From the NCBI GenBank assembly GCA_049663345.1, contig JBATDG010000075.1, positions 11,793 through 75,792 on the forward strand: a stretch of 64,000 nucleotides of DNA, given 5' to 3'. Made by a program: the position numbers and the translations under genes. Below, piece after piece: positions 38,722-56,747 of the stretch; the stretch's first letter is position 1; the number at the start of each line of letters is the position of its first letter. Source of the DNA: Bacteroidota bacterium (GTDB lineage: Bacteria; Bacteroidota; Ignavibacteria; SZUA-365). The notes beneath the pieces were generated by a model, which did no database searches, was not told the DNA's origin, and saw only the letters and a program-made list of their open reading frames with translations.

Positions 38722-41700
38722 ATGACAATAATGCTGCGGTGCTCAAGGTGCAAGGTCGTTCTCGTTTCAGCCTTCATGTTCTTCCTCAGTCCCGCAGCAA
38801 CCTTCGCCTCGATTGCCATCGATGTCGAGGGAATCGAAGGGCTGACGCTCGAGGTGCGAGGGAATGATTACCTCGTCAGCGTCACTGACACTTTTCATCT
38901 GCACGGTATGAAAGTCAATCCTTCGGGATTGACTTTGCAGTATACAGCAGCTGACACCTCCTTCCATATCTACGGCGCGGCAGAGTTTATTCTTGGAACG
39001 GATACGCTATCGATCTCGCTCGGGGCATCTGCGAATCCGGGAATCATCATCGACGACGGGAAGCTTGTGCTGGTCGAAGTCTCCATTACCGGTGATTTCC
39101 GTTTGCGCAAGCTGCACATCATTCCCGTTGATCTTTCCTTCGACTGGATCGCCGGAAGTCATGCCTATTCCATGTACGGCGACATCACGGTAATGATCGA
39201 AACGGACAGCCTCTTCGCTACACTGGGTGATGCCGCCCATCCGGGCATCGTAATCACGGATGGCGTCATAGACACGATCGACGTCAGCATCAGCGGCAAA
39301 TTCTCACTGAAAAGCCTGGCGATCAAACCGGATTCCCTCACCTTTGTCTATGACCGTGCTGCCTCTCAATACAAGATATTCGGCAGCGTGGAGGTCGATA
39401 TCGAAAAGGATACGATTGACGCGATGCTTGGAACGGCGAAGGACCCCGGGATCACCATCACGAACGGGGCACTCGACCATATTTTCATCCTGGTCTCGAG
39501 CAAATTCGAGTTGAAGAAGCTCACCATCAAGACGGATTCGCTGGGGATTGCCTGGCAGAAAGGCCTGGCAGGGAATGTGTTTCATCTATTCGGCAAGGTG
39601 AAAATTGAAATCGAATCCGATACCATCGCCTTCGATTTCGGAACTCCGGTAAAACCAGGGCTGGTTTATAAAGACGGGAAAATTGACTCGCTGAAAATCT
39701 CGACGACCGACGATCTGCACTTCGCGGGTTTCAAAGCCGGGACGAAAAACCTGACGCTCGAATACAGCGATTCAGTATATCATATATGGGGACAGCTGTT
39801 TTTAAAGAAATTCTGGAGTGCGCTTATCGATCTGGGTACCGGACCGGGTTCCGGCGTCACAATCGATGCATCGCAGAAGCCAGCGAAGATTACCATCAAT
39901 CATGCGAAATTCGATCTGGCGGATATTGATCTGGGGCCGATAACACTGAAAGACATCGATCTCGTGCTGGATAAGAATCGCGTCCAGAGCGCTTCGATTT
40001 CACTCGAACTTCCTCCGGGCTGGGAAATCGATGCCGGCGTCGCATTCAAGCTGGTGAACAATGCCCTCGAAGTTGATTCCATCGGCATCACATGGGAAAC
40101 CGACAAGATCTCCGAAGCAATCGAAATTCCTGGGACCGGCGCATTCATCGTGCGGCTCGACGGCGGTGTCTCCGGGCTTGAAAATCCCCATGATTTCAAA
40201 CTCAACGGCGGCATCGACATCGTGTTCGGCGGCCCCTTCACTATCAAGGGGGTCGGCGAAGTATCCCTGCTTTATCTCAATGCCGGGGTAATCATCTCAC
40301 GCTCCGAATTCAAGCTCACTGCCGGCGCAATGATGGGGGCATACAAGAAAAGTGGAACATGGACTCCGGTGCTCGGTGATGGCTTCCTCACATTTGATTT
40401 CCTCTGGGGGAATTCCTACTCCATTGTCGGCGACCTGAATATTCCTTCGGATCCGTATACAATGATCGCAGCCGCTCTGTCAGCAAAGCTTTCCAGCACA
40501 GGCGCCTTCAATGCAAGTGTCAGCGTGGCGCTGCAGCTGCCGGAAGTTGTGCCGGTGATCGGGGGACATAAGTTCGCGGAGGCCGACGGCCTTGTCCACT
40601 ACGATAAGAATGATCCGAGCAGCTTCGCGGCGGGCTGGGCCAGTCTTGATCTCGGATTCTACACTGTCAGAGGCGGCATCAAATACATTTTTCAGCAAAA
40701 AGATTTCGTTACGATCGGTTCTGACGGCATCGACGACCTGAAGACTGAAAATCAAACGCTACCGGATTCCGATCCCAGATACTGGGATTTTCTTCACATC
40801 AATGTCGATAATGCCAATCCGCTCCTCATTCAGGTGAAAGTGAAATTCAAGCAGGTTTTGCCGAAATTCTACTTCGATACCTTCTATCCGATAGCCGTCG
40901 GGAAAGTGAATTATTCTCCGATGTACATCGTCTCCGGCGCTGATCTTATCAGCAGTTCGGGCATGAATCTCACAACCATTCCGACCTATACGTGTAAGTG
41001 GATTCCTCAATCCGACAGCGTTCTTTTTTATATCATGGCGCCAGGGTATGCATCGAGTTCCAGGGCCACGCTTCCCACAGGACAATACACTATCGAGTTT
41101 GCCAACAACGTCGGCGCAGATATGATCGAGAGTTACGCGGTACATAAAATATACGATGCACCGTGGGCGGTGTGGACCTACCTCTATAGCTACTTCACCG
41201 ATGCTTCCGGACCGCTCGCCAATGCGATGATCACGCCCAAACTTGGGTATCACACGCGTTCCGAAGTCTATGATATTGATTCATCAACCGTGCGCATGTT
41301 TTTCACAAAACACAGCACGGATAACGGGACTCTTCTCAAGACCGTGAACTATGCCGATTATTGGGGGACGTATCCCCCCGACGGCGAATATCTCAAGATC
41401 GAAGGCGTCGATTTCCCGACGACGCTTGCCCGGGGCGACAGCCTGTTGCTTTACCTGACCATAGACGACGGCATTAATGCGATGTACAAGTCGCCGGTGC
41501 AGCTTGCGGCTTTCCGGCCCCCGTTCAATGCGAATGTCAGCATTACCGGATTTCCTGCTTCCGCGGCATCCGGGATTGAGACTATGCTGTATATTCAGAA
41601 TCCCGCAGATAATGCATGGTACCCTGCGGACACACTGAAGCACTTCACCAATGCGGCAGGGGATGTGTCCTTTCCCTACTGTCTCAAGATCAATACAAAC

Positions 41701-41844
41701 GTCAAGTTCCAGTTTGACATCCCGATGGGATATGAAGTGGACCCGGCATCAACATATCAAAACGGGCAGGCGCTGCCGGTGAGCAATATCAATGCCGACT
41801 GCGGAAAATATGTAACGATTCAGCTGCGGAAAACGCAGAAATAG
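38722..41844 (+). CDS. large secreted protein with five ~60-aa tandem modules (hypothetical)
   Basis: Signal peptide MTIMLRCSRCKVVLVSAFMFFLSPAATFA. Repeated module G(x)A(x)(N/H/D)PGI(I/V)ITDG(x)(I/L)D(x)(I/V)xVS(I/V)SG(K/D)F(x)LK(x)L(x)IK(P/T)DSL(T/G)... five times in the first 350 aa. 1040 aa. Confidence 0.5.
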   Translation: MTIMLRCSRCKVVLVSAFMFFLSPAATFASIAIDVEGIEGLTLEVRGNDYLVSVTDTFHLHGMKVNPSGLTLQYTAADTSFHIYGAAEFILGTDTLSISLGASANPGIIIDDGKLVLVEVSITGDFRLRKLHIIPVDLSFDWIAGSHAYSMYGDITVMIETDSLFATLGDAAHPGIVITDGVIDTIDVSISGKFSLKSLAIKPDSLTFVYDRAASQYKIFGSVEVDIEKDTIDAMLGTAKDPGITITNGALDHIFILVSSKFELKKLTIKTDSLGIAWQKGLAGNVFHLFGKVKIEIESDTIAFDFGTPVKPGLVYKDGKIDSLKISTTDDLHFAGFKAGTKNLTLEYSDSVYHIWGQLFLKKFWSALIDLGTGPGSGVTIDASQKPAKITINHAKFDLADIDLGPITLKDIDLVLDKNRVQSASISLELPPGWEIDAGVAFKLVNNALEVDSIGITWETDKISEAIEIPGTGAFIVRLDGGVSGLENPHDFKLNGGIDIVFGGPFTIKGVGEVSLLYLNAGVIISRSEFKLTAGAMMGAYKKSGTWTPVLGDGFLTFDFLWGNSYSIVGDLNIPSDPYTMIAAALSAKLSSTGAFNASVSVALQLPEVVPVIGGHKFAEADGLVHYDKNDPSSFAAGWASLDLGFYTVRGGIKYIFQQKDFVTIGSDGIDDLKTENQTLPDSDPRYWDFLHINVDNANPLLIQVKVKFKQVLPKFYFDTFYPIAVGKVNYSPMYIVSGADLISSSGMNLTTIPTYTCKWIPQSDSVLFYIMAPGYASSSRATLPTGQYTIEFANNVGADMIESYAVHKIYDAPWAVWTYLYSYFTDASGPLANAMITPKLGYHTRSEVYDIDSSTVRMFFTKHSTDNGTLLKTVNYADYWGTYPPDGEYLKIEGVDFPTTLARGDSLLLYLTIDDGINAMYKSPVQLAAFRPPFNANVSITGFPASAASGIETMLYIQNPADNAWYPADTLKHFTNAAGDVSFPYCLKINTNVKFQFDIPMGYEVDPASTYQNGQALPVSNINADCGKYVTIQLRKTQK

Positions 41845-41854
41845 AGGAATTGTC

Positions 41855-43390
41855 ATGATAGCCAAGATTTCACTGTATATAACCTTGTTCCTCTGCGCTT
41901 CGCTCCGCCTGGATGCGGGCGGTCACGTTTCGGGCTCCTCCGATGCGGCGCTGCCGCCGCACAGCCTTTTCGGCTGGGCCGTTTCCGTGCAGGGCGAATT
42001 CGCTGCCATCTCTGCTCCCGGTGAGCGCGATAACAACCTCACGTCAGCAGGTGCGGTATATATCTATCGCATCCATTCAGGGAACTGGGAATTCATGCAG
42101 CGAATTGCTCCCTCCGATCCGTCGATGATGAAGCTCTTCGGCGCTTCGATCAAGATCGAAGGCCACACGCTGATCGTCGGCGCTCCCGGCGACAATGCCA
42201 AGACTGGCGCCGTCTATACCTACGCTTACAGCGGCGAATCCTGGGAAGCAGTGCAAAAGCTGGCTCCCCGCACTCCCGTGATGTTCCAGGGCTTCGGTTC
42301 GAATGTGGATGCCGCACAGGGTATCGTGCTGATCAGTTCCGTGGCGTCCGGACGCAACGACTCTGCCTCGGGGTCCGTGGCCATATACAATCCTGAATCC
42401 ATTCCATGGAAAGAAGAGGCCGTTCTGACGGCTCCGATAAAGGACGTTAACGATCTTTTCGGTTCTGCTGCCGCGATTCTCTCATCGGATCATATCCTTA
42501 TCAGTGCCCCGAGAGCCGATGGGGCGGTGGAGCATAGCGGAGCTGTGTACGCATTCCGGCGCATTGATCAAGATTGGAAGCTGACAGGATCTTTCGCATC
42601 TCCTTATGCACGTACAGACGGCCTGTTCGGCTGCGCACTCAGCGCTTCCTCCGGACGGGTGCTGGTCGGCGCGATGCAGGAACATGTAACGGACATGAAT
42701 TCCGGATCCGCATATATTTATTCGCAGAACAGCGACGGACAGTGGACCGTGGAATCCCGCATCGTACCGGATACGGTGCGCAATCAGGATTATTTCGGGA
42801 CGGCAGTTTCACTCGACGGCGAAATCGCGATTGTGGGGAGTCCGAAATGGGATATTAATAAACTTCGGCGCAACGGCGACATGGGCCGTGTGGCTGTATA
42901 TGCACGGTCCGACAGCGGCTGGATGCACACGGGGAGCGTCATTCCCGAGGATGGAAATAGTGACGATCATTTCGGAATGGCGATCGGCATGAGCGGCAAC
43001 GAACTCATCGTCGGTTCGCGATTGCATGACAATGCCGCCTCCAACGACGGGTCTGCCTACTTCTACCGGCTGGGTGAACTCTTCCCTGCGCTCACAGAAA
43101 AAGTGATACCTGCCTCGTTTGAACTGAGCCAGAATTTTCCGAATCCATTCATCTCCTCGACCACGATTCACTACGATCTACCAGAGCGCACTCATGTCAC
43201 AATCGAAATCTTTGATGCGGATGGCCGGCTGATTCGCCAGCTTGTCGATCAGGATCAGGAGGCCGGTCATCGGCAGGTCACCTGGAACGGACGCAATCGG
43301 TGGTTCGGTGTTGCGCAGTCCGGCGTCTACGTCTACCGCATCACCACACCGAATTTCACTGCTTCGCGGAAAATGGTGTTTGTGAAATAG
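41855..43390 (+). CDS. FG-GAP repeat (integrin-alpha-like beta-propeller) protein with T9SS C-terminal sorting domain
   Basis: Signal peptide. Recurring LFG(W/A/S)(A/S)(V/I)...(I/L)(I/V)GAP(G)...GAVY(I/T)Y motifs. C-terminal LSQNFPNPFISSTTIHYDLPERTHVTIEIFDADGRLIRQL...GVYVYRITTPNFTASRKMVFVK is a canonical T9SS sorting domain. Confidence 0.75.
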   Translation: MIAKISLYITLFLCASLRLDAGGHVSGSSDAALPPHSLFGWAVSVQGEFAAISAPGERDNNLTSAGAVYIYRIHSGNWEFMQRIAPSDPSMMKLFGASIKIEGHTLIVGAPGDNAKTGAVYTYAYSGESWEAVQKLAPRTPVMFQGFGSNVDAAQGIVLISSVASGRNDSASGSVAIYNPESIPWKEEAVLTAPIKDVNDLFGSAAAILSSDHILISAPRADGAVEHSGAVYAFRRIDQDWKLTGSFASPYARTDGLFGCALSASSGRVLVGAMQEHVTDMNSGSAYIYSQNSDGQWTVESRIVPDTVRNQDYFGTAVSLDGEIAIVGSPKWDINKLRRNGDMGRVAVYARSDSGWMHTGSVIPEDGNSDDHFGMAIGMSGNELIVGSRLHDNAASNDGSAYFYRLGELFPALTEKVIPASFELSQNFPNPFISSTTIHYDLPERTHVTIEIFDADGRLIRQLVDQDQEAGHRQVTWNGRNRWFGVAQSGVYVYRITTPNFTASRKMVFVK

Positions 43391-43598
43391 AGGCGCTCAA
43401 GCCGTTGGAGAAGCATGCAGTATACCGGCATCTTCGCTTGCATTAAAATCCAGAACCGCCGATATTCCATTTCAACATTTCTGAAATATTCCTTCTTCCG
43501 GCGGATCAGATGACGGGATACGTTGACGGCGTGTGCTACAGAACAGCCGCGAGATCCGGTATCCGATGCAGACGGAACAAGCAAGAGGAGAGCAGATC

Positions 43599-43997
43599 AT
43601 GAGCAATCGCATTGTGCATTTCGAAATCCATGCGGCCGATATTGAGCGGGCGAAAACGTTTTACGGCGCTGTATTTGGATGGGATTTCCCATTGTGGATG
43701 GAGGAGCCACCGTACTGGGGCGTGATGTCCGCTCCCCCCGACAGTGCGGAACCGGGCATTAACGGCGGACTCCTGCAGCGCATGGGCAGCGCTCCGGTCG
43801 AGGGGGCGGCGGTGAACGCCTATGTATGCACCGTGCAGGTAGACAGCTACGACGAGACGCATGACAAGATCCTCGCCGCGGGCGGTACGGTCGCACTCCC
43901 GAAAATGCCGATTCCCGGTATGGCCTGGCAGGGCTATTACAAGGACCTCGAAGGAAACATCTTCGGGCTGCATCAGGCAGATCCGGAAGCCAAATAA
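43599..43997 (+). CDS. VOC-family (glyoxalase/bleomycin-resistance fold) protein
   Basis: IVHFEIHAADIERAKTFYGAVFGW and GGTVALPKMPIPGMAWQGYYKDLEGNIFGL motifs of the VOC fold. Start moved to ATG 43599 behind gaggag. Confidence 0.7.
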   Translation: MSNRIVHFEIHAADIERAKTFYGAVFGWDFPLWMEEPPYWGVMSAPPDSAEPGINGGLLQRMGSAPVEGAAVNAYVCTVQVDSYDETHDKILAAGGTVALPKMPIPGMAWQGYYKDLEGNIFGLHQADPEAK

Positions 43998-44014
43998 CAC
44001 TGCAGACAGCTCGT

Positions 44015-44425
44015 GTGAATCAGAAAGACGAAGCGGAGCATGACGTGAAATCGGATACACCGAACATCAACAGCATCGACGAGTATATCGACGGATTTCC
44101 TGAAGATATCCGGAACAAGTTGTCGGAAATGCGGGCTGCCATCGGGGAGACCGCACCCGATGCCGTCGAGGTCATCAGCTACCGGATGCCGGCCTTCCAC
44201 CACAATGGCGTACTGGTGTATTTCGCGGCATATAAAAACCATATCGGATTCTATCCCACCGCAAGCGGAATTGCACATTTCGTAGACGAATTCCAGGGTT
44301 ATACCTTCTCGAAGGGCGCGGTGCAGTTTCCTCTCGACAAACCGCTGCCTCTCGCTCTTATTCGCAAAATCGTCCGTTTCCGCCTGGAGGAGAACAAAAG
44401 CGCGAAAGCAACGCCGAAAGTCTGA
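44015..44425 (+). CDS. DUF1801 (YdhG-like) domain protein
   Basis: IDEYIDGFPEDIRNKLSEMRAAI...YRMPAFHHNGVLVYFAAYKNHIGFYP is the typical DUF1801 pattern. The GTG start at 44015 is uncertain. Confidence 0.55.
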   Translation: MNQKDEAEHDVKSDTPNINSIDEYIDGFPEDIRNKLSEMRAAIGETAPDAVEVISYRMPAFHHNGVLVYFAAYKNHIGFYPTASGIAHFVDEFQGYTFSKGAVQFPLDKPLPLALIRKIVRFRLEENKSAKATPKV

Positions 44426-44481: not shown

Positions 44482-46050
44482 ATGTGTTTCCATACGTTTG
44501 CGATGGGGTCTTCATTCGCGCGATATGAGAGCGGCGTGATTGTGCACGACTGCGTTGTGCCATCGGCACGGCCTGTCGTGGGCACGACAAATTCCTTGTA
44601 TGAAATTGACGTACGTGAATTTCTCACCAGCGAGAAAAATGCCGTAGTGAAGCAGGTACTTCGGCGTGACATGCGGCGAATGCTGGATGACGCCTCGCGC
44701 ATCCCTGCGGAGGCTCCGCTTTTCGGTGTATACAGGAGCGCGTGGGAATTCTTCCAATCCAGTGATCAGGGGTCGTTTGATTTCCGGGCCCGCGCGGTGC
44801 AGCAATTTGTCGCTCAAGCGGTCCGCTACCGCCGCGACCCCCGGCGTGATACCTGGCAATTCCCGGACGAGACTCTGAGACTTGGCCGCGGCGACTGCGA
44901 AGACATTGCCTTTCTCGTGGCGTCTCTATTGCTCGGCAGCGGCATCAGCGGTTACAATATTCGTGTCTGCCTGGGGACCGTCGAGATGAGCACGCCCCGC
45001 AGCAGGAAATCGTTCGATCACATGTGGGTGATGTACAAGGATGAGCAGGGGCAATGGAATGTCATAGAACCGCTTTCCTTAAGCGCCACCGGGGAAGCGT
45101 CTCAAAAGACGAAAGCACCAGGAAAGGGTGCAGCCGCTGCTCCCATACTTTCATATATCCCCGAGTTCGGATTCAATGTCGATCATCTCTGGCAGTACGG
45201 GACGGCGCAGAAAGCCTCCTTTCAGGAGCGGGCGGAGCTGCGGAAGGAGTGGGTGCGTTTCGAGCCGCGCTTTGCCGGCTTCGTCCATCAAAGCCTCATT
45301 CACGACGCCCTCGCAGCGCGAGCGGCTGCGCATCCGCTCCTGCTGAACTTGCTGAACCAGGAATTCACTGTATTCCTCGGTGATCCGGCGAACACCGTCG
45401 CTGAGATCGATCTGCCTTGGAAATACCATCCGTTCGATCATTTCGATAATGGATACATCTCCGAAAGCTGGTCCCGGGCGCGTCAGCGTTTGGAGAGATG
45501 CATGGACCCGGCGAATCGCGAGATGGTGCGGGACTTCTCCCGCGCTGCGCACGCCATCGCCGATTACTATGCGCACACCTCCTATGCGCATTTCGCACAA
45601 CGGGATGCACAGGGTGCGCTCCTGCTTGCGAAGGACGATCTCTGGAGCGACACGGCGCTCGCCCGCTGGCCGGATTACAGCAACGGATCCGATTTCCCGA
45701 TCAATGATTTCCGTCCCGCAACTCCATGGCAGGGACGGGACTCGCAGCGGGTAGCGGTGTGGAATGGCGCCTTGCTCAGCGGGCGCTGGCGGCTTCCCGG
45801 AGATTTCGGCACCCCGCCCGAGGCTTCGCTCTGGGCTACAGAGCAGCGTGACAGGAGAATGCGCTACAGGATGGCTCTCCCGCATCACGATGAAATCGCA
45901 GTGGACAAACCGTCTGCCAATGGCGGCAGCAACGGACTTTACGATTCAGCGACCTTTGACGCGCAATACACTCTCCGCTACGATGCCGCCGTTCGCCACG
46001 TCCGCTGGGCCTTCGCACATTACGGAAGCGAACTGGAGAAGCTGGGGTAG
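44482..46050 (+). CDS. fusion protein: N-terminal transglutaminase-like cysteine-protease core plus C-terminal zinc phospholipase C / S1-P1 nuclease-like domain (hypothetical)
   Basis: N-terminal half: RLGRGDCEDIAFLVASLLLGSG (Cys), HMWVMYKDEQGQW (His), Asp downstream. C-terminal half: His/Asp-rich motifs HPFDHFDNGY, AHAIADYYAHTSYAH and LPHHDEIAVDKPS, reminiscent of Zn-PLC/P1-nuclease metal ligands. No signal peptide seen, and the start is uncertain. Confidence 0.45.
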   Translation: MCFHTFAMGSSFARYESGVIVHDCVVPSARPVVGTTNSLYEIDVREFLTSEKNAVVKQVLRRDMRRMLDDASRIPAEAPLFGVYRSAWEFFQSSDQGSFDFRARAVQQFVAQAVRYRRDPRRDTWQFPDETLRLGRGDCEDIAFLVASLLLGSGISGYNIRVCLGTVEMSTPRSRKSFDHMWVMYKDEQGQWNVIEPLSLSATGEASQKTKAPGKGAAAAPILSYIPEFGFNVDHLWQYGTAQKASFQERAELRKEWVRFEPRFAGFVHQSLIHDALAARAAAHPLLLNLLNQEFTVFLGDPANTVAEIDLPWKYHPFDHFDNGYISESWSRARQRLERCMDPANREMVRDFSRAAHAIADYYAHTSYAHFAQRDAQGALLLAKDDLWSDTALARWPDYSNGSDFPINDFRPATPWQGRDSQRVAVWNGALLSGRWRLPGDFGTPPEASLWATEQRDRRMRYRMALPHHDEIAVDKPSANGGSNGLYDSATFDAQYTLRYDAAVRHVRWAFAHYGSELEKLG

Positions 46051-46124
46051 TGGAGCTGCGGCTTTCCGGTATCGCCGGCAGGACGGCCTTTCCCATTTCA
46101 CGCATTCAATTGTTCGAGGGATAT

Positions 46125-46514
46125 ATGCAGATAAAATTCGTCAGCGTCATGGTCGAGGATCAGGCGCATGCACTGGAGTTCTATACAACCATTCTTGGTT
46201 TCGAGAAGATGGCGGATATCCCGATGGGCGAGTATCGCTGGCTGACGGTCATGTCTCCCGACGGAGTCGCCGGCGTGGAACTGGCGCTCGAACCCGTGGC
46301 CTTCCCTCCGGCTCGAATATTTCAGAAAGAACTGTACGAAGCGGGTATTCCTGCCACTGCCCTCATCACAACGGATATCAGCGCGGAAGTTGCACTGCTC
46401 AAATCCCGCGGCGTCGTTTTTCGCGGCGAGCCGGTGAACATGGGACCAATAATCGCCGTGATGTTCGAAGATACCTGCGGCAACCTCATACATCTGGTTC
46501 AGTCGCTGATGTGA
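46125..46514 (+). CDS. VOC-family (glyoxalase-fold) protein
   Basis: MQIKFVSVMVEDQAHALEFYTTILGF...VMFEDTCGNLIHLVQ. Start moved to ATG 46125. Confidence 0.65.
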   Translation: MQIKFVSVMVEDQAHALEFYTTILGFEKMADIPMGEYRWLTVMSPDGVAGVELALEPVAFPPARIFQKELYEAGIPATALITTDISAEVALLKSRGVVFRGEPVNMGPIIAVMFEDTCGNLIHLVQSLM

Positions 46515-51127: not shown

Positions 51128-53437
51128 TTACCCCCGAAACCCGAACAATCCCCCAGTTTTCTCAAAAGCCCCCTGGCTTTCCTGTTCGCAGGCTCCTACC
51201 AGATCTTCCATTGTAAGCTTGTCGCCGCGGGAGGCAGCGGTGCGGAGGGCGTTTGCGGCGGCGATGGCGATCTGTCCTCCGGTGAACGTAAAGCGCTCGG
51301 AAAGACGCTCAAAATCGACCTCCGGGGTGCGGGGAACGCTCACGGGAATATGCCCTTTCCACAACGCAACGCGGGCTGCCATGTCGGGCGCGGCGAAAGA
51401 GATCTTGTAATCAAAGCGGCGGCTAAAGGCGTCGTCGAGGGATTCCATGAGATTGGTAGTGGCGATCAGGATTCCCGGGAAGCGCTCGAGCTGTTCGAGC
51501 AGGATGTTCTGCAGCCTGTGCTCGGTCTGGTCGGTAGAACGTCCGCCGCCGCCGCTGGACTCCCGTCTCCCCATTAGCTGGTCGCATTCGTTGAGCAGAA
51601 GCACAGGCGGCTTTTCACTGACGCGCATGAGCCGCGCATAGGAAGAGAACATCCGCTGAAGCTGGCTTTCGCTGCCGCCGTACCATTTCGAAAGGATTTT
51701 CGTGGCATCGGTTATAAGCAGATCGCGTCCGAGAGAGGCGGCGAAGGCCTCGGCGGTGTAAGTCTTACCGGTTCCTGGAGGACCGTGGAACAGCAGCAGC
51801 ACCGAGCCGCTGGGACGCGTTGCCGTGACGTGCTCAATTCCCCAGGCACGCAGGCGTTCGAGCTGTTCGCCGTGAACTGATCCCATTGCGACGTCGAGAC
51901 TCTTCCGCAGCTCAACGGGGAGCACGGCGCTGTCGAGGTTGTGTCCCGGTTGCCGGCGTTCGAATAGCTGCGATCCGTCGAAATCCGCGGCCTCCTTACT
52001 CTCAAGGGAATTTTCTTCCAGAATACGTTGAAGAATGGAGTCGGGGATTGTATAGTCGCTGCTGCCCATGAAGCCCTCCTCGACGTCGATGAGTCCATGT
52101 TTGCGCAGCGGCGAACCATCGCGGAAATAGCGCTGGCAGCGGAAGCCCTTAAAGTAGTCAGTTCCCCCAAGCGCCTCGGTAGCGTTCTGTATACCAACTC
52201 CGCCGCCTTTGAGGCCGGCGTAGAGGGCGAGTCCGAGTATGATGCGCTCGTTGACGTCGAGTTCCATGTCCCGCGCGATCTGCTCGAAGGGATAGACGGT
52301 TCCGCTTTCGCCTATGCGCCGCAGCAGCGACTGCACTTCCGGCAGCTTTTCGGCCGCTTCGCCTTTTCTCGGTCTTCGGCGTCTCCTCCGGAATTGGGGC
52401 GGAAGGTGGGAATTCTCCTCATCGTTCATCAGGAACTTTGCTACGTCGCACCAGGCAGAAAGAAACGCTTCATTGTTTTCGAATGCGCTTTCCGCCGGCT
52501 CCGCTTCGCTGTGCCGGAAATTCCGCGGAGAATCGCCTCCATTGACAAGCCAACTGCTGAGGGATTCGTCAATCACGACATCCTGCCGCATGAGAGGACC
52601 CACTCCATCAAGTTCAATAATTCCGTTTGCGATAAGAGTGCCGTCGCCCTCGAAATAGCCGCGATAGGTATAGCGGTCGAAGAGATCTCCGCTGCCGGCG
52701 ATTTCAATCAGGTCATGCACCTCAGGCAAATCCCCTTCAAGTTCGCCGCGCAATACAAGCAGCAGCATCGTCCAGTCGCTGCGGTCGAGATTGAGTTCCT
52801 GCGCGAGAGCCTCGAGCGGAGGCAGCGGATCAGTGAGAGAGCCCTTTCGACGCAGATAGGCATACTTGCTCTCGGCTGTGTTTCCTTCATCTGTTTTCTC
52901 CGTCGAGGCGCCCAGCTTTTTGCGGGAACGCCCACCTTTCTGAAGATCGCGGTTCTCAAGGAGGAGATCCAAGTAGGAGAAGCAGTCCTGCAGGTACGAT
53001 TTATTGGAAGCATAGCCCATTTGTTCGAGCGCTGGATCGAAGTCGGGGTCCTGCAGCCGCAGAGCGATCCGCAGCTGCCGCTTCTCGCTGCCCCGCAGCG
53101 CGGCGAGCGTATGGACGTCGGAAGGACCTTCATTTCCGCTGCCGTCGAGCACGGCGATATACTCCCTTTCAGCCAATGAAGCAAGCACAACATCCCAACG
53201 CAGGCGGAGGTGATAATCCTTCGCGGCGGCCTGCAGATGGCCGATATCGGTCAGCAGGTTGCCTCGCTGTGTTTCGCGGGAAAGCACGGCCAGCGCCGCC
53301 AGCTCCTCTTCCGAACAGGGGTGCGGCAGCAGTTCCGCACAGTTTCCCATTCCGCCGCGGATCTGCTTCCTGTCGTTGTCTGACAGGGCCTCAGCCAGCG
53401 AATCCAGCGCTTCGAGAATTTCTATTTCTGAACACAT
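51128..53437 (-). CDS. AAA+ ATPase (classic AAA clade) with ~500-aa uncharacterised N-terminal region
   Basis: C-terminal AAA module: Walker A GPPGTGKT, Walker B VLLLNECDQL, second region of homology ATTNLMESLDDAFSRRFD. The N-terminal 500 aa have no motif I recognise. 769 aa. Confidence 0.75.
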   Translation of the reverse strand: MCSEIEILEALDSLAEALSDNDRKQIRGGMGNCAELLPHPCSEEELAALAVLSRETQRGNLLTDIGHLQAAAKDYHLRLRWDVVLASLAEREYIAVLDGSGNEGPSDVHTLAALRGSEKRQLRIALRLQDPDFDPALEQMGYASNKSYLQDCFSYLDLLLENRDLQKGGRSRKKLGASTEKTDEGNTAESKYAYLRRKGSLTDPLPPLEALAQELNLDRSDWTMLLLVLRGELEGDLPEVHDLIEIAGSGDLFDRYTYRGYFEGDGTLIANGIIELDGVGPLMRQDVVIDESLSSWLVNGGDSPRNFRHSEAEPAESAFENNEAFLSAWCDVAKFLMNDEENSHLPPQFRRRRRRPRKGEAAEKLPEVQSLLRRIGESGTVYPFEQIARDMELDVNERIILGLALYAGLKGGGVGIQNATEALGGTDYFKGFRCQRYFRDGSPLRKHGLIDVEEGFMGSSDYTIPDSILQRILEENSLESKEAADFDGSQLFERRQPGHNLDSAVLPVELRKSLDVAMGSVHGEQLERLRAWGIEHVTATRPSGSVLLLFHGPPGTGKTYTAEAFAASLGRDLLITDATKILSKWYGGSESQLQRMFSSYARLMRVSEKPPVLLLNECDQLMGRRESSGGGGRSTDQTEHRLQNILLEQLERFPGILIATTNLMESLDDAFSRRFDYKISFAAPDMAARVALWKGHIPVSVPRTPEVDFERLSERFTFTGGQIAIAAANALRTAASRGDKLTMEDLVGACEQESQGAFEKTGGLFGFRG

Positions 53438-53618: not shown

Positions 53619-55469
53619 TCAACGGATCTGCAACTGCTCCCTGAAGTACTTATCGACTAAGGATAGCAGATCATTCTTTTTAATGGGCTTGGAGATATAG
53701 TCGTTGCAGCCTGATTCAAGCGCTTTTTCTCTGTCACCGGTTAATCCGTAAGCTGTTTGTGCAATTATGACAACATCAGGATTAAACTTCCGGATTTGCC
53801 GCGTCGCTTCATATCCGTTCATCTCGGGCATTTGAATGTCCATCAATATCAGGTCGAGATCGGGGTTGTTGCGGCAGGCTTCAACTGTTCCAACTCCTGT
53901 CCTGGCCTTCAAGATATTTTTGCTGAACCTGCTTACCATTATTGATAAATATTTTTCCGATGTTTCATCGTCCTCGGCAATGAGTACTTTCAACCCTAAA
54001 TCTGCAGCTGGGGCGATACTATCTTCAACAGAGCCCGAAGCCGTAATTTCGATACCGGCCCTCTCTTCCTTCTTGACATGATAAGGCAAGGTGAAATAAA
54101 ACGTTGAACCCACGCCGGGTTCGCTTTCCACCCAGATCCTGCCGCCAAGCATTTCTATGTATGATCTGGTAATCGCCAATCCCAGGCCCGCACCTTGTCT
54201 TGCCATTTTATCTTCGATATCGGCCTGAACGAAGCGCTCAAAAATGGCCTCCTGTCTGTCCTTTGGAATTCCAATCCCAGTGTCTTTCACGAAGAACTGC
54301 AGCGACGGAACAGCTTCCGCGGCTGCAAAGCCATATCCGAATTCTATGGAACCTTCGTCGGTATATTTAACTGCATTCTTGATGAGATTGGTAAGAATGG
54401 CAAATAATTTTTCCCTGTCGGTAATAATAGCTGCTTCCTTCGCAGACAATTTGCTGCCAAGGGAAAGTTGTAATCCTTTGGCTTCCGCCTCGGGTTTGAA
54501 AAAGGTGCAAATGTAATCAAGCTGCTCATTTACATTCGATTCGTCCAGATCCAATTTCATCAGGCCGGATTCTATTGTTGAGATGCTGATTATATCGTTG
54601 ATGATATTGAGCATTCGTACGCTGGCATTTTCTATAATACCGATATACTCCTGCTGCTGCTCGCCGGTAAGATCAGCCGCTTTCAGCAATCCTGCAAAGC
54701 CGACGACGCCATTCATGGGAGTTCTGATTTCGTGGCTCATGTTCGCCAAAAAGGCTGACTTAAGGCGGTCGCTTTCTTCGGCCCTTTCCTTGGCCATTTG
54801 CAGCTCGTTGGTCCGCGCTTCTACTGTCTTTTCGAGGTCATTATTAATCGCTTCAACACGTGATTTTTCTCTGTCAAGTTCGTAATTCAGGAAAAAGTTG
54901 TGACGCGCGTAATATTCAATATTGTAGGAAGCGAGCATCCCGATGATATTCGCACTGATAAAGAAGAAGTTGGTGTTAATGAGCACAATATGCGAGGCAT
55001 GTGAGTAGAATATCGCGCCAAGATTAAAAATCAACAGTGTAGTCCATCCCGCAATCGATGCAAGGAAAAACCGGAGTTTAATAAAGAAGTATCCTGCCGC
55101 GAAGATCAGCATCATGCCGGCATAGTAAGCATAATTTTCGGGCACAAACATAGTCATTACAATAACGCCCGATCCGGCTACAATAAAACTTATGAACAAT
55201 AGCCCTTGCCAAATCTTTTGAAATACTCTGGTAAAAGACAGAAGAAATACTATGGTTAGTGTTGGAATGACGAAGACAAATCGGATTATGTGGAAATGGA
55301 CGGCATAATCCGGGAACATTATTGAATCCAGATACCCAAATATTCCGTAAAGCAATACAACTAATACAAAGGAGACTCTGAATTGATTGACAGAGTCAAG
55401 GTAGTATTGTTTCTGGAAGGCCTCTTCCTCCTTTCCGGGAAAGGCCAGGGTCATTTTATTATATTGCAT
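53619..55469 (-). CDS. hybrid sensor histidine kinase / response regulator with N-terminal polytopic membrane sensor
   Basis: About 6 TM helices, coiled coil, HisKA ([16 protein letters not shown]), HATPase_c (G-boxes [14 protein letters not shown]), C-terminal REC (LIAEDDE...LMDIQMP...KP). GC is ~42%, against ~60% for neighbouring genes. Confidence 0.85.
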
Positions 55470-55758
55470 CGTTTTTGGGCAATCGTGTTTCGTTAAGGTA
55501 CTAAGAGCGAAGCTCGCATCCCCGCAAGCTGCAGGCAGAGATGAAACTCTGTGTGTAGTGATGCTGGATAATCCACCGACGCCCCTGTTCGAATAGCTCC
55601 GCCATATCAGTACCAGTAAGAACTAGAAAATGATTTTATTGTAGGAATAGCGGGAAAAATATTGAAATCGATCATCATTAGCAAGAACGCGGTTCTGTTC
55701 ATGACGCATGATTGCTGTTCGGGCGGTAGAAATCACTATACGTGAGGTGCCCGATATA

Positions 55759-55792
55759 AGATGTTGACAACCAGATGAACTGTATCAGTACA
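55759..55792. repeat. 34-bp direct repeat, copy A (agatgttgacaaccagatgaactgtatcagtaca)
   Basis: 29/34 identical to 53490-53523. Overlaps the stop codon of the WYL regulator gene. Confidence 0.7.
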
Positions 55793-56747
55793 GACTGCTC
55801 ATTCTATTTATGGCGCTGCGCATCGAGTCGCGGAGGGAGACGGGTTCGAGCACCTCGGCATATTCGCCCCAGCGGAGAATCCAGGCGATGAGCTCATTCG
55901 ACGGACCCAGACGCATGCGGAGTATGAGGTCGCCGTTTTCGTCGTCGGACATTTTCTGGCTCGGGTGCCACTGGCGGGACTCGATCGACCCGCGCACAGT
56001 TTTCGCGAAGCGGATCACCACATCCTCGGGAGTCTCATACCAGATGCCGAAACTGTCCTTCAGAACTTCGCTGAGCGAATATGCGGGATCGCGTTCGAAA
56101 GTGTCGTCTGTCAGCTCCACCGTTCGGAAGCGCGGGAGGGCGAAATAGATCGAATTGTTATAGGGAGGAACTCGTCCGATAATATAGAGAGCGCCGTTGT
56201 GCAGGAGGAGGGAATAGGGATGCAGCTTGTATTGCTTGCTGCGGTAGCGCACCTTCGCCACGCGGCGGTGCACGATGGCCTCGAAAAGGTCGCGCAGCAT
56301 ATCCGATCGCTCGCTGAGATCCGCCAGGCCGGGCTGGTGGACGTGAAGGAGCCCGCCCGAAAAGGCGTCCGGCACAGCTATGGCATCGTCGGGCAGCAGC
56401 TGAGTGAGTTTGTCGAACACACTGAGCATATCAGTCTCCAAGCGGGTGCCGGCAAACACTTCGCGGAACTGAAGCAGCAGCACGGCGGCCAGCACCTCCT
56501 CAGGCGTCAGCAGCTGGGGAATGAACTGGAAGCTGCGATCGAGGGAGTAATATTTTTCATTGTGTGGGCCCGTCCGCAATCGCAGCGGAATCGACGCGCC
56601 TTCTATATGCCTGATCGTGCGCTGAATCGTCTGCTTCGATTCCTCCTCTCCGAAATAATCATGAAGTTCCTTCACCGTCACGTCGTCGTGCGTACTGAGT
56701 CTCTGCAGAATACGGAGCGCACGGATGAGCATCGTCATTTCGGCCAT
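55785..56747 (-). CDS. WYL-domain transcriptional regulator (wHTH - WYL - WCX architecture)
   Basis: N-terminal winged HTH (LIRALRILQRLSTHDDVTVKELHDYFGEEESKQTIQRTIRHIE). Central domain with ...AKVRYRSKQYKLHPYSLLLHNGALYIIG... resembling the WYL core. C-terminal extension. 320 aa. Confidence 0.55.
   Translation of the reverse strand: MAEMTMLIRALRILQRLSTHDDVTVKELHDYFGEEESKQTIQRTIRHIEGASIPLRLRTGPHNEKYYSLDRSFQFIPQLLTPEEVLAAVLLLQFREVFAGTRLETDMLSVFDKLTQLLPDDAIAVPDAFSGGLLHVHQPGLADLSERSDMLRDLFEAIVHRRVAKVRYRSKQYKLHPYSLLLHNGALYIIGRVPPYNNSIYFALPRFRTVELTDDTFERDPAYSLSEVLKDSFGIWYETPEDVVIRFAKTVRGSIESRQWHPSQKMSDDENGDLILRMRLGPSNELIAWILRWGEYAEVLEPVSLRDSMRSAINRMSSLY

What the first reader, a model, noticed from the sequence alone, without database searches (positions are those of the whole stretch)
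44482..46050. Unusual two-domain protein: transglutaminase-like cysteine-protease core fused to a Zn-phospholipase-C/P1-nuclease-like His-rich domain
The N-terminal half carries the papain-like transglutaminase catalytic pattern (GDCEDIAF...HMWVMY...D). The C-terminal half carries several His/Asp clusters (HPFDHFDNGY, AHAIADYYAHTSYAH, LPHHDEIAVD) reminiscent of the trinuclear-zinc ligands of PLC and S1-P1 nucleases. I do not recognise this fusion as a described family. A dual protease-like/phosphoesterase-like architecture would fit a toxin or effector role, but that is speculation. The ORF-track start shows no signal peptide.
Basis: partly seen in the sequence, partly recalled or inferred. 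Interest (0 to 1): 0.55.

Follow-up and report, generated by a model that had tools for sequence, protein, structure and literature searches.

The report
LapG-like peptidase fused to Het-C-like hydrolase
This gene encodes a rare but widely scattered bacterial protein that permanently joins a calcium-type cysteine peptidase domain to a previously unannotated, histidine-rich metal-hydrolase domain of the Het-C/VWA7 kind; the architecture is real and undescribed, but its biological role is unknown and nothing points to a classical secreted toxin.

Summary
The ORF (44482-46050, +, 522 aa) and all quoted motifs are real. The N-terminal half is a transglutaminase-like cysteine peptidase domain. It passes the Pfam PF01841 threshold. 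Its closest structure is LapG (Foldseek E 4e-5). C139 and H180 are invariant, E196 fills the triad acid position, and the LapG-type D-C-E calcium motif is present.

The C-terminal half has no Pfam hit in this protein. Profile-profile comparison shows it is a divergent Het-C/VWA7_N-type domain: 96.9-98% probability, E 1e-10 to 1e-12, controls below 1%. Every signature His/Asp motif aligns and is invariant.

Het-C has been predicted, not shown, to be related to Zn-phospholipase C and S1-P1 nuclease. My direct tests of that link were not significant.

The fusion is obligate in about 290 clusters (50% identity). It occurs in at least 175 of 185,579 species genomes across about ten phyla. It has no signal peptide and no conserved neighbour, and I found no plasmid or phage copies.

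The toxin/effector idea has no contextual support. Best reading: an intracellular two-headed hydrolase in which the peptidase probably controls the metal-hydrolase. This is a new variant of known kinds and of moderate interest.

The parts
44482..46050 (+). Whole ORF, 522 aa, including the stop codon
   Evidence: identical to NCBI MAG protein P0001; more than 100 full-length homologues
44482..44739 (+). Conserved N-terminal segment (res 1-86). It starts with the fixed 'MC[LF]' and carries the motifs W15, G17, R30, Y40, D43, R45 and EFL. It has no signal peptide.
   Evidence: MC present in 115/120 homologues; invariant columns; hydrophobicity; pLDDT below 50 for res 1-9
44740..45201 (+). Transglutaminase-like / LapG-like (BTLCP-fold) cysteine peptidase domain (res 87-240)
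   Evidence: Pfam PF01841 E 9.6e-9, 35.9 bits against a cutoff of 23, res 101-197; Foldseek LapG 4fgo/4fgp/4u65 E 4e-5 to 1e-4, probability 1.0; profile vs PDB LapG E 4e-4
44893..44901 (+). D138-C139-E140: nucleophilic Cys flanked by the LapG/DvhG-type calcium-ligand pair
   Evidence: Conserved 118/119/118 of 120; identical GDCED in LapG alignments; DvhG D316A/E318A and C317A abolish activity (PMC13090378)
45019..45021 (+). H180, catalytic His
   Evidence: 120/120 conserved
45067..45069 (+). E196, in the position of the triad Asp (inferred)
   Evidence: E 114 / D 6 of 120; the Pfam profile ends at residue 197; the His-to-acid spacing of 16 is typical of the fold (my knowledge)
45073..45147 (+). 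Variable, low-confidence loop inside the peptidase domain (res 198-222)
   Evidence: pLDDT below 50; length 15-44 aa; di-Ala in only 28/120 homologues
45175..45192 (+). N232-x-x-H235-L-W237 strand at the domain junction. N, H and W are invariant. The His is absent from LapG.
45202..45249 (+). Poorly conserved inter-domain linker (res 241-256)
   Evidence: pLDDT 59-65; column composition
45250..46026 (+). Het-C/VWA7_N-type His/Asp-rich, mostly alpha-helical metal-hydrolase-like domain (res 257-515)
   Evidence: hhalign vs VWA7_N 95.3%, and 96.9% local / 98.0% global; controls below 1%; sub-threshold PF25107 hits in 59/85 members; AF2 pLDDT 88.4, pTM 0.86
45250..45288 (+). W257-x-[RK]-[LFIM]260-x-P262-x-F264-A-G-x-V-H269. 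Residue 260 aligns with the mature N-terminal Phe of VWA7_N, and H269 aligns with its first conserved His.
45409..45447 (+). D310 and H320-F-D322 (the Het-C '[DE]' and 'HxD' motifs)
   Evidence: D310 in 119/120; H320 and D322 in 120/120; aligned to VWA7_N D116 and H128-F-D130
45550..45591 (+). H357xxxD361xxxH365, followed by S367..H370 in place of Het-C NxxE
   Evidence: H357, D361 and H365 in 120/120; aligned to VWA7_N H168xxxD172xxxH176; Het-C PF07217 touch on this helix
45778..45786 (+). S433-G434-R435, the '[ST]G' motif
   Evidence: S/T 120/120, G 120/120, R 120/120; pairs with VWA7_N LTSGY in the permissive alignment
45883..45906 (+). H468-H469-x-E471-x-x-x-D475, the last ligand-like cluster
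   Evidence: H469 and D475 in 120/120, H468 in 118/120; LPHH pairs with VWA7_N SPHH at low per-column confidence

Best explanation
The gene encodes a soluble protein without a signal peptide, so it is most likely intracellular. It has two hydrolase domains and both appear catalytically competent. Residues ~87-240 form a LapG-like (BTLCP-fold) transglutaminase-superfamily cysteine peptidase with a Cys139-His180-Glu196 triad and the D-C-E calcium motif next to the nucleophile. Residues ~257-515 form a divergent Het-C/VWA7_N-type domain whose invariant His/Asp residues (H269, D310, H320, D322, H357, D361, H365, H469, D475) would build a multi-metal centre for phosphoester hydrolysis, acting on a phospholipid head group or a nucleic acid. 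The rest of this statement is inferred. The two domains are never found apart in this family, and the Het-C-like domain is otherwise known as a secreted, N-terminally exposed module. I therefore infer that the peptidase domain controls the metal-hydrolase domain. The most probable route is calcium-dependent cleavage in the flexible linker just before the conserved W-x-[RK]-[LF]-x-P motif. The protein would then be a latent enzyme switched on by proteolysis. What is shown: the domain identities, the conservation of the catalytic residues, the obligate fusion, and the absence of an export signal and of partner genes. What is inferred: metal content, substrates, and the coupling between the domains.
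For: Peptidase domain: Pfam PF01841 above threshold; Foldseek LapG E 4e-5, probability 1.0; family profile hits LapG sequences, including the post-core FN..LW strand; C139 in 119/120, H180 in 120/120, position 196 E or D in 120/120, D138 and E140 in 118/120; D-C-E is the experimentally required calcium site and nucleophile in DvhG (PMC13090378). Het-C-like domain: hhalign vs 34 VWA7_N proteins 95.3%, E 2.4e-8; with 179 vs 85 sequences, 96.9% local and 98.0% global, E 1e-10 to 1e-12; reversed-alignment and N-half controls at or below 0.7%; PF25107 sub-threshold hits in 59/85 members, co-linear; motif order H, D, HxD, HxxxDxxxH, [ST]G as listed for Tox-HET-C (PMC3482391). Obligate fusion: the C-domain profile finds only 287 clusters in 1.84e9 representatives, and all those inspected are the same architecture or truncated calls. 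No signal peptide or TM segment. No conserved neighbour. For the coupling idea: VWA7_N domains begin with a conserved Phe directly after a signal peptide, and the equivalent residue 260 is internal here within a conserved motif.
Against: No activity has been measured for any Het-C/VWA7_N domain, so 'phosphoesterase' rests on a predicted relationship to Zn-PLC/P1. I could not confirm that relationship: Foldseek E 2.7, TM 0.27; hhalign below 1%. The window protein itself has no Pfam hit in the C-terminal half. No conserved LapG-type [T/A/P]AAG cleavage motif exists in the variable loop. Position 259 is basic in only 134/179 members. A calcium-dependent protease in the low-calcium cytoplasm needs a trigger that has not been identified. 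The invariant N-terminal 'MC' is not explained by this model.
Confidence: 0.55

Rival explanations
1. It is a secreted or injected toxin/effector. The Het-C-like domain would be the toxic head and the cysteine peptidase a self-releasing processing domain, as in polymorphic toxins or MARTX-type toxins, exported by a non-classical route.
For: Het-C domains occur as toxin heads in polymorphic-toxin-like systems, there associated with a releasing peptidase (PMC3482391). The distribution is patchy, in at least 175 of 185,579 species across many phyla. One lineage places it among CHAT, KTSC, Metallophos and SNIPE-nuclease genes; others place it next to patatin or Peptidase_C13.
Against: No signal peptide or N-terminal trafficking domain. 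No conserved immunity-like gene and no secretion-system gene among neighbours of 80 loci. No recurrent Pfam family among 105 flanking genes. No PADLOC hit. Absent from plasmids and phages. Fixed architecture and strong conservation instead of the cassette-like variability of polymorphic toxins. Hosts are mostly free-living nitrifiers, methanotrophs and soil or freshwater bacteria.
Confidence: 0.12
2. It is a bifunctional housekeeping or salvage enzyme. The two heads would act independently on one composite substrate carrying both an amide/isopeptide bond and a phosphodiester. Examples are a lipid- or nucleotide-linked peptide from cell-envelope precursor turnover, or a peptide-modified lipid. 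No self-processing would be involved.
For: An obligate fusion of two intact active sites is typical of enzymes acting on one substrate. Weaker Foldseek hits of the N-domain include isopeptidases such as PeiW/PeiP and PNGase. The gene is chromosomal, mostly among housekeeping neighbours.
Against: The family is far too rare (about 0.1% of species) for a core pathway. There is no conserved metabolic operon. No substrate can be named from the data.
Confidence: 0.2
3. The C-terminal domain is not an enzyme. It would be a metal-binding regulatory or structural module, for example a metal or redox sensor, that gates a LapG-like peptidase, which would be the only catalyst.
For: No Het-C/VWA7_N domain has a demonstrated activity. 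The Het-C NxxE motif is replaced by S..H. Direct similarity to the enzymes PLC and P1 is not significant.
Against: Nine His/Asp positions are 99-100% invariant, in the same order as the PLC ligand set and with similar early spacing: ours H-41-D-10-H-37-HxxxD, PLC H-41-D-14-H-49-HxxxD. That degree of conservation is typical of a catalytic centre.
Confidence: 0.08

Closest known systems
LapG / DvhG, bacterial transglutaminase-like cysteine proteinases (BTLCP, Pfam Peptidase_C93; PDB 4FGO, 4U65)
   Same: Same fold (Foldseek probability 1.0). Same D-x-W-x-x-P-x-E...G-D-C-E-D block around the nucleophile, including the D-C-E calcium pair. Same Cys-His-acid triad order. Shared FN..LW strand after the core.
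   Different: No signal peptide, whereas LapG is periplasmic. No LapD/LapA/T1SS neighbours. Below the Peptidase_C93 and LapG model thresholds. Glu instead of Asp as the third triad residue in 95% of members. Extra conserved N-terminal segment starting with 'MC'. An invariant His235 in the FN..LW strand. A C-terminal Het-C-like domain that no LapG has.
Het-C / VWA7_N domain (Pfam PF07217, PF25107; Tox-HET-C of Zhang et al. 2012)
   Same: Significant profile-profile homology. Aligned and invariant H, D, HxD, HxxxDxxxH and [ST]G motifs. Mostly alpha-helical.
   Different: Below both Pfam thresholds, and the window protein has no hit at all. NxxE is replaced by S367..H370. The domain is internal and without a signal peptide, whereas VWA7_N starts right after one. 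It is fused to a cysteine peptidase rather than to VWA domains, RHS repeats or a PVC-metallopeptidase.
Zinc-dependent phospholipase C (PF00882; B. cereus PC-PLC 1AH7, C. perfringens alpha-toxin 1QM6) and S1-P1 nucleases (PF02265)
   Same: Same order and type of potential ligands (H, D, H, HxxxD, H, H..D/E) with near-identical early spacing. All-alpha domain. Alpha-toxin and PC-PLC are the best, though non-significant, PDB fold hits. Three of 85 members touch PF00882 at E 0.02 or weaker.
   Different: No significant sequence, profile or fold similarity. HxxxDxxxH instead of HxxxDxxxxxH. About a 100-residue insertion before the last ligand cluster. No free N-terminal Trp.

Membership tests
Transglutaminase-like superfamily (Pfam PF01841 Transglut_core) | Scores above the curated Pfam gathering threshold | tested here: met
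   35.9 bits against a cutoff of 23, E 9.6e-9, res 101-197; 85/85 family members match
Transglutaminase-like superfamily (Pfam PF01841 Transglut_core) | Cys-His-Asp catalytic triad conserved | tested here: met
   C139 in 119/120 and H180 in 120/120. The third position is E in 114 and D in 6 of 120, an acidic variant. Assignment of E196 to the triad position is by profile register and spacing, so it is an inference.
BTLCP / LapG (Pfam Peptidase_C93; NCBIfam NF045674) | Scores above the family model thresholds | tested here: not met
   Peptidase_C93 11.5 bits against 27; NCBIfam LapG 19.3 bits against 320
BTLCP / LapG (Pfam Peptidase_C93; NCBIfam NF045674) | BTLCP fold | tested here: met
   Foldseek 4fgo/4fgp/4fgq/4u65 E 4e-5 to 1.3e-4, probability 1.0, TM 0.50-0.54 normalised on LapG
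BTLCP / LapG (Pfam Peptidase_C93; NCBIfam NF045674) | [quoted passage not shown] | tested here: met
   D138-C139-E140 conserved at 98-99%; matches LapG GDCED and the DvhG D316/C317/E318 mutagenesis. Actual calcium binding was not tested.
BTLCP / LapG (Pfam Peptidase_C93; NCBIfam NF045674) | Periplasmic location (N-terminal signal peptide or anchor) and association with LapD-type receptor, adhesin and T1SS genes | tested here: not met
   No hydrophobic N-terminus in 120 homologues; no conserved neighbours in 80 loci
Het-C / VWA7_N (Pfam PF07217, PF25107) | Scores above the Pfam gathering thresholds | tested here: not met
   The window protein has no hit even at E<=10. 59/85 homologues hit PF25107 at best E 1.9e-4, about 19 bits against 27.5. 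One homologue hits PF07217 at E 0.1.
Het-C / VWA7_N (Pfam PF07217, PF25107) | Homology detectable by profile-profile comparison | tested here: met
   hhalign 95.3%; 96.9% local and 98.0% global, E 1.3e-10 and 1e-12; controls 0.1-0.7%
Het-C / VWA7_N (Pfam PF07217, PF25107) | Signature residues H, [DE], HxD, HxxxDxxxH, [ST]G (Zhang et al. 2012) | tested here: met
   H269, D310, H320xD322, H357xxxD361xxxH365 and S433-G434 are all 99-100% conserved and aligned to the VWA7_N equivalents
Het-C / VWA7_N (Pfam PF07217, PF25107) | Nxx[DE] motif directly after the HxxxDxxxH helix | tested here: not met
   VWA7_N has HSNWVE; this family has AHSSYxHF, with S367 at 95% and H370 at 91%
Zn-dependent phospholipase C / S1-P1 nuclease superfamily | Significant sequence, profile or fold similarity to members | tested here: inconclusive
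   Foldseek best hits are 1qm6 (E 2.7, TM 0.27) and 2ffz (E 7.8, TM 0.29/0.33). hhalign vs PLC is below 1%, both for this family and for VWA7_N. The PDB profile search finds nothing.
Zn-dependent phospholipase C / S1-P1 nuclease superfamily | Nine-ligand trinuclear zinc site: N-terminal Trp plus H, D, H, H, D, H, H, D/E | not testable with these tools
   Eight side-chain positions of matching type and order exist. Spatial clustering and metal content could not be examined because no model coordinates were available. There is no free N-terminal aromatic residue.
Polymorphic toxin / toxin-immunity system | N-terminal trafficking or secretion module, adjacent immunity gene, variable C-terminal cassettes | tested here: not met

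The most novel reading that the evidence does not exclude
The protein would be a calcium-gated, self-processing zymogen. Zn-PLC and P1 nuclease use the free alpha-amino group of the mature N-terminal aromatic residue as a zinc ligand. VWA7_N domains likewise begin with a conserved Phe directly after the signal peptide. In this family that position (residue 260, in W-x-[RK]-[LF]-x-P) is buried in the chain. The fused LapG-like peptidase would cleave there when calcium enters a damaged or infected cell. That would create the missing N-terminal ligand, complete the metal centre and unleash a phospholipase or nuclease inside the cell, making this a one-protein damage-sensing suicide or defence effector. 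An alternative version has the invariant N-terminal Cys2 of the whole protein supplying the amine/thiolate ligand.
Probability: 0.15. Interest if true: 0.7.

Novelty: new variant of a known kind. Interest (0 to 1): 0.45.

Why it matters
Three things follow if this holds.

- It defines a conserved, unannotated bacterial branch of the Het-C/VWA7 domain. That domain is linked to fungal heterokaryon incompatibility and to a vertebrate MHC class III protein, and its biochemistry has never been measured.
- This family offers a soluble bacterial version without a signal peptide, present in cultured strains (Nitrosomonas oligotropha, Nitrosovibrio tenuis, Geothrix terrae, Rhodoferax lacus). It could be used to determine what Het-C-type domains actually hydrolyse and which metals they bind.
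- It extends LapG-type calcium-dependent peptidases outside the periplasmic adhesin-release paradigm.

If the peptidase really activates the hydrolase, this would be a compact example of proteolytic zymogen control within a single bacterial polypeptide.

Tried and rejected
- **Pfam, NCBIfam and PADLOC on the C-terminal half or the whole protein:** no family for the C-terminal half.
- **Sequence and profile searches of PDB with the whole protein, the family profile and the C-domain profile:** only LapG for the N-domain, nothing for the C-domain.
- **Foldseek of the isolated C-domain model against PDB and BFVD:** no significant hit.
- **Direct hhalign or HMM comparison with B. cereus PC-PLC and a 17-member PLC family profile:** not significant, and inconsistent about which His matches PLC H14. 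I do not file the domain under Zn-PLC/S1-P1.
- **Conserved-neighbour hypothesis (immunity gene, secretion system, sensor):** rejected by all-vs-all clustering of 737 flanking ORFs from 80 loci and by Pfam profiling of 105 neighbours.
- **Adjacent cysteine peptidases:** the C1, C13 and CHAT genes seen in three early loci did not generalise.
- **LapG-style [T/A/P]AAG self-cleavage site in the poly-Ala loop 198-222:** rejected. The loop is variable and di-Ala occurs in only 28/120 homologues.
- **Stand-alone versions of the C-terminal domain:** the short hits are N-truncated gene calls that begin inside the peptidase domain.
- **Mobile-element carriage:** none on plasmids or phages.
- **Ntn-type amidotransferase reading of the 'MC' start:** considered and set aside, because no such Pfam family matches and the N-terminal segment is too short.
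Full report
**Observation**

The window holds one + strand ORF at exactly 44482..46050 (522 aa, ATG start). It is a real gene. An identical protein is deposited from a Bacteroidota MAG as 'transglutaminase-like domain-containing protein'. More than 100 full-length homologues (about 500-550 aa, 35-62% identity, 94-100% coverage) exist in public data.

**N-terminal half**

Pfam Transglut_core matches residues 101-197 above its curated threshold (35.9 against 23 bits, E 9.6e-9). CEP76 peptidase-like also passes its threshold.

The closest characterised relatives are the LapG-type bacterial transglutaminase-like cysteine proteinases:
- The family profile hits LapG sequences in PDB (4fgo E 4e-4), including the strand after the catalytic core (our Y-x-P-x-F-x-F-N-x-x-H-L-W against LapG P-V-Y-S-F-N-A-E-G-L-W).
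- An AlphaFold model (mean pLDDT 82.7) finds LapG structures as its only strong PDB matches (E 4e-5 to 1e-4, probability 1.0, TM about 0.5 on LapG length).

Across 120 homologues C139 is present in 119 and H180 in all. Position 196 is Glu in 114 and Asp in 6.

The residues flanking the nucleophile, D138 and E140, are 98% conserved. In the BTLCP protease DvhG the equivalent D316A/E318A mutant loses calcium-dependent activity (PMC13090378), and LapG shows the same GDCED block. The domain therefore looks like a calcium-type LapG-like peptidase.

It is not a LapG orthologue:
- It falls below the Peptidase_C93 and NCBIfam LapG thresholds.
- It has no signal peptide.
- It has no Lap-type neighbours.

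**C-terminal half**

Residues 221-522 have no Pfam hit even at E<=10. There is no PDB sequence hit with a domain profile. An isolated, confident model (pLDDT 88.4, pTM 0.86, mostly helical) finds no significant fold match in PDB or in viral structures. The best PDB hits, far from significance, are C. perfringens alpha-toxin (E 2.7) and B. cereus PC-PLC (E 7.8).

The lead came from scanning 85 homologues individually:
- 59 give weak, co-linear hits to PF25107 'VWA7 N-terminal domain' (best E 1.9e-4; protein ~278-374 against profile ~18-120).
- Three touch Zn_dep_PLPC.
- One touches Het-C on the HxxxDxxxH helix.

VWA7 is the vertebrate MHC class III protein that Zhang et al. 2012 named as the animal Het-C domain (PMC3482391).

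To test this I wrote down the human VWA7 N-terminus from memory and checked it against Pfam (276.8 bits to PF25107). I used it only as bait to retrieve real database members, including pig VWA7 at 95% identity and rotifer proteins that carry both PF25107 and PF07217.

Profile-profile comparison of the C-terminal domain with these sequences gave:
- 95.3% probability, E 2.4e-8.
- With deeper alignments (179 against 85 sequences), 96.9% in local mode (E 1.3e-10) and 98.0% in global mode (E 1e-12).
- Controls: a column-reversed VWA7_N alignment gives 0.7%, and our N-terminal half gives 0.1%.

The alignment pairs invariant residues with invariant residues:

| This family | VWA7_N |
|---|---|
| H269 | H45 |
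| D310 | D116 |
| H320-F-D322 | H128-F-D130 |
| H357xxxD361xxxH365 | H168xxxD172xxxH176 |

In permissive mode LISGRY also pairs with LTSGY, and LPHH with SPHH. This reproduces the published Tox-HET-C signature 'H, [DE], HxD, HxxxDxxxH..., [ST]G'. The one difference is that NxxE is replaced by S367..H370.

I conclude that the C-terminal half is a divergent Het-C/VWA7_N-type domain that current Pfam models miss.

**Is it PLC/P1-like?**

Zhang et al. predicted, at borderline significance, that Het-C shares fold and active site with Zn-PLC and S1-P1 nucleases. I verified a B. cereus PC-PLC sequence (identical to 1AH7), built a PLC family profile and compared it.

Neither our domain nor VWA7_N reaches significance (below 1%). 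A PLC HMM gives only chance-level matches that disagree with one another.

What the sequences do show is the same order of ligand-type residues with similar early spacing:
- PLC: H14-41-D55-14-H69-49-H118xxxD122.
- This family: H269-41-D310-10-H320-37-H357xxxD361.

A new observation points the same way. In VWA7_N proteins the conserved Phe lies directly after an 18-28 residue signal peptide. The mature domain therefore starts with an aromatic residue 16 positions before the first His. This resembles Trp1...His14 of PLC, where the free N-terminus is a zinc ligand (that last point is my knowledge of 1AH7 and 1AK0).

'PLC/P1-like' remains a reasonable inference but is not demonstrated here.

**Family and context**

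- **Size:** a profile of the C-terminal domain alone finds only 287 clusters (50% identity) among 1.84 billion representatives.
- **Architecture:** all hits inspected are the same two-domain architecture, N-truncated gene calls that begin inside the peptidase domain, or longer versions with insertions or mis-called starts. The fusion is obligate.
- **Distribution:** a pattern scan of one genome per species finds it in at least 175 of 185,579 species. These span Bacteroidota, Ignavibacteria/Chlorobiota, Nitrosomonadaceae, methanotrophs, Nitrospirota, Acidobacteriota, Myxococcota, Planctomycetota, Verrucomicrobiota and others. Cultured carriers include Nitrosovibrio tenuis, Nitrosomonas oligotropha, Geothrix terrae and Rhodoferax lacus.
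- **Neighbours:** clustering 737 flanking ORFs from 80 loci finds no conserved neighbour. Pfam profiling of 105 neighbours finds nothing recurrent (DEAD helicases in 5, all else in 2 or fewer).
- **Other checks:** there are no PADLOC hits and no plasmid or phage copies. No homologue has a hydrophobic N-terminus or membrane segment.
- **In this window:** the gene lies between VOC/glyoxalase and DUF1801 genes. That arrangement is not conserved elsewhere.

**Mechanism**

Shown:
- Two domains, each with a fully conserved active-site-type residue set.
- The domains are never found apart.
- The protein has no export signal and no partner genes.

Inferred:
- A calcium-dependent cysteine peptidase and a multi-metal phosphoesterase.
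- A link between them. The Het-C-type domain elsewhere starts at a free N-terminus, but here its equivalent start (residue 260, in W257-x-[RK]-[LFIM]-x-P262-x-F264-A-G-x-V-H269) is internal and preceded by a poorly conserved, low-confidence linker. I therefore think the most likely link is proteolytic control of the hydrolase by the peptidase.

This last step is speculative. Position 259 is basic in only 75% of members. No LapG-type cleavage motif is conserved. Inter-domain geometry could not be examined.

**Rivals**

- A non-classically exported toxin. Context argues against it.
- A bifunctional enzyme acting on one composite substrate.
- A non-catalytic metal-binding C-domain.

**Unexplained**

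- The protein starts with 'MC[LF]' in 115 of 120 homologues, with no length variation.
- H235 in the junction strand is invariant but absent from LapG.

**Novelty and verdict**

Both domains belong to known superfamilies. I found no description of this fusion or of this branch of Het-C/VWA7_N, and public annotation names only the transglutaminase-like part.

I rate it a new variant of known kinds and of moderate interest. It would be most useful as a tractable bacterial model for the still uncharacterised Het-C/VWA7 domain.

Noticed in passing
window 44482-44490 (residues 1-3): The protein begins with Met-Cys-[Leu/Phe] in 115 of 120 homologues, with no N-terminal length variation. The exceptions look like mis-called starts. 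A residue fixed at the very N-terminus suggests a role for the free amino group or thiol, but AF2 leaves residues 1-9 unplaced.
   Followed up: partly
window 45175-45192 (residues 232-237): The N-x-x-H-L-W strand at the junction of the two domains has invariant N232, H235 and W237. LapG has the same strand (FNAEGLW) without the His. A PLC HMM repeatedly, though insignificantly, aligned PLC 'NSH14LWIV' to it.
   Followed up: partly
VWA7_N proteins P0254-P0373: In VWA7_N family proteins the conserved Phe (pig VWA7 F29) lies immediately after an 18-28 residue signal peptide ending in A, G or S. The mature domain therefore starts with a conserved aromatic residue 16 positions before the first conserved His, reminiscent of Trp1..His14 in Zn-phospholipase C.
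   Followed up: partly
L005:2018-10076: In one lineage the homologue P0026 sits in a conflict-system-like island. KTSC, Metallophos, CHAT and KTSC genes lie upstream. Two small unknown genes and a SNIPE/T5orf172 nuclease lie downstream, all on the same strand. Other single loci have Peptidase_C13 plus patatin (L009) or Peptidase_C1 (L003) next to it. The pattern does not generalise.
   Followed up: partly
window 51128-53437 (-): A 768-aa AAA+ ATPase with a winged-helix domain. PADLOC IetA models hit it at E down to 3.7e-23. No adjacent IetS-like protease was seen; the next gene is a hybrid histidine kinase.
   Followed up: partly
window 53619-56747 (-): A hybrid histidine kinase/response regulator (53619-55469) and a WYL/WCX-domain regulator (55785-56747). 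They lie around a segment where GC drops to 46%, against about 55% elsewhere (54001-56000).
   Followed up: no
window 38722-43390 (+): A 1040-aa protein with a signal-like N-terminus and no Pfam match. It is followed directly by a FG-GAP-repeat protein with a T9SS C-terminal sorting domain, which fits a Bacteroidota origin.
   Followed up: no
window 43533-44425 and 46050-46514 (+): The gene is flanked on the same strand by two VOC/glyoxalase-family genes and a DUF1801 gene. The downstream VOC ORF as listed starts at the last base of the stop codon, but its Pfam match begins at residue 28, so the true start is probably a later ATG. This arrangement is not seen in other genomes.
   Followed up: partly
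L030:1107-5825 and five other loci: A large DEAD/DEAH (Lhr-like) helicase gene neighbours the family in 5-6 of 80 loci. This is the only flanking family seen more than four times outside obvious close-relative synteny. It may be chance.
   Followed up: no
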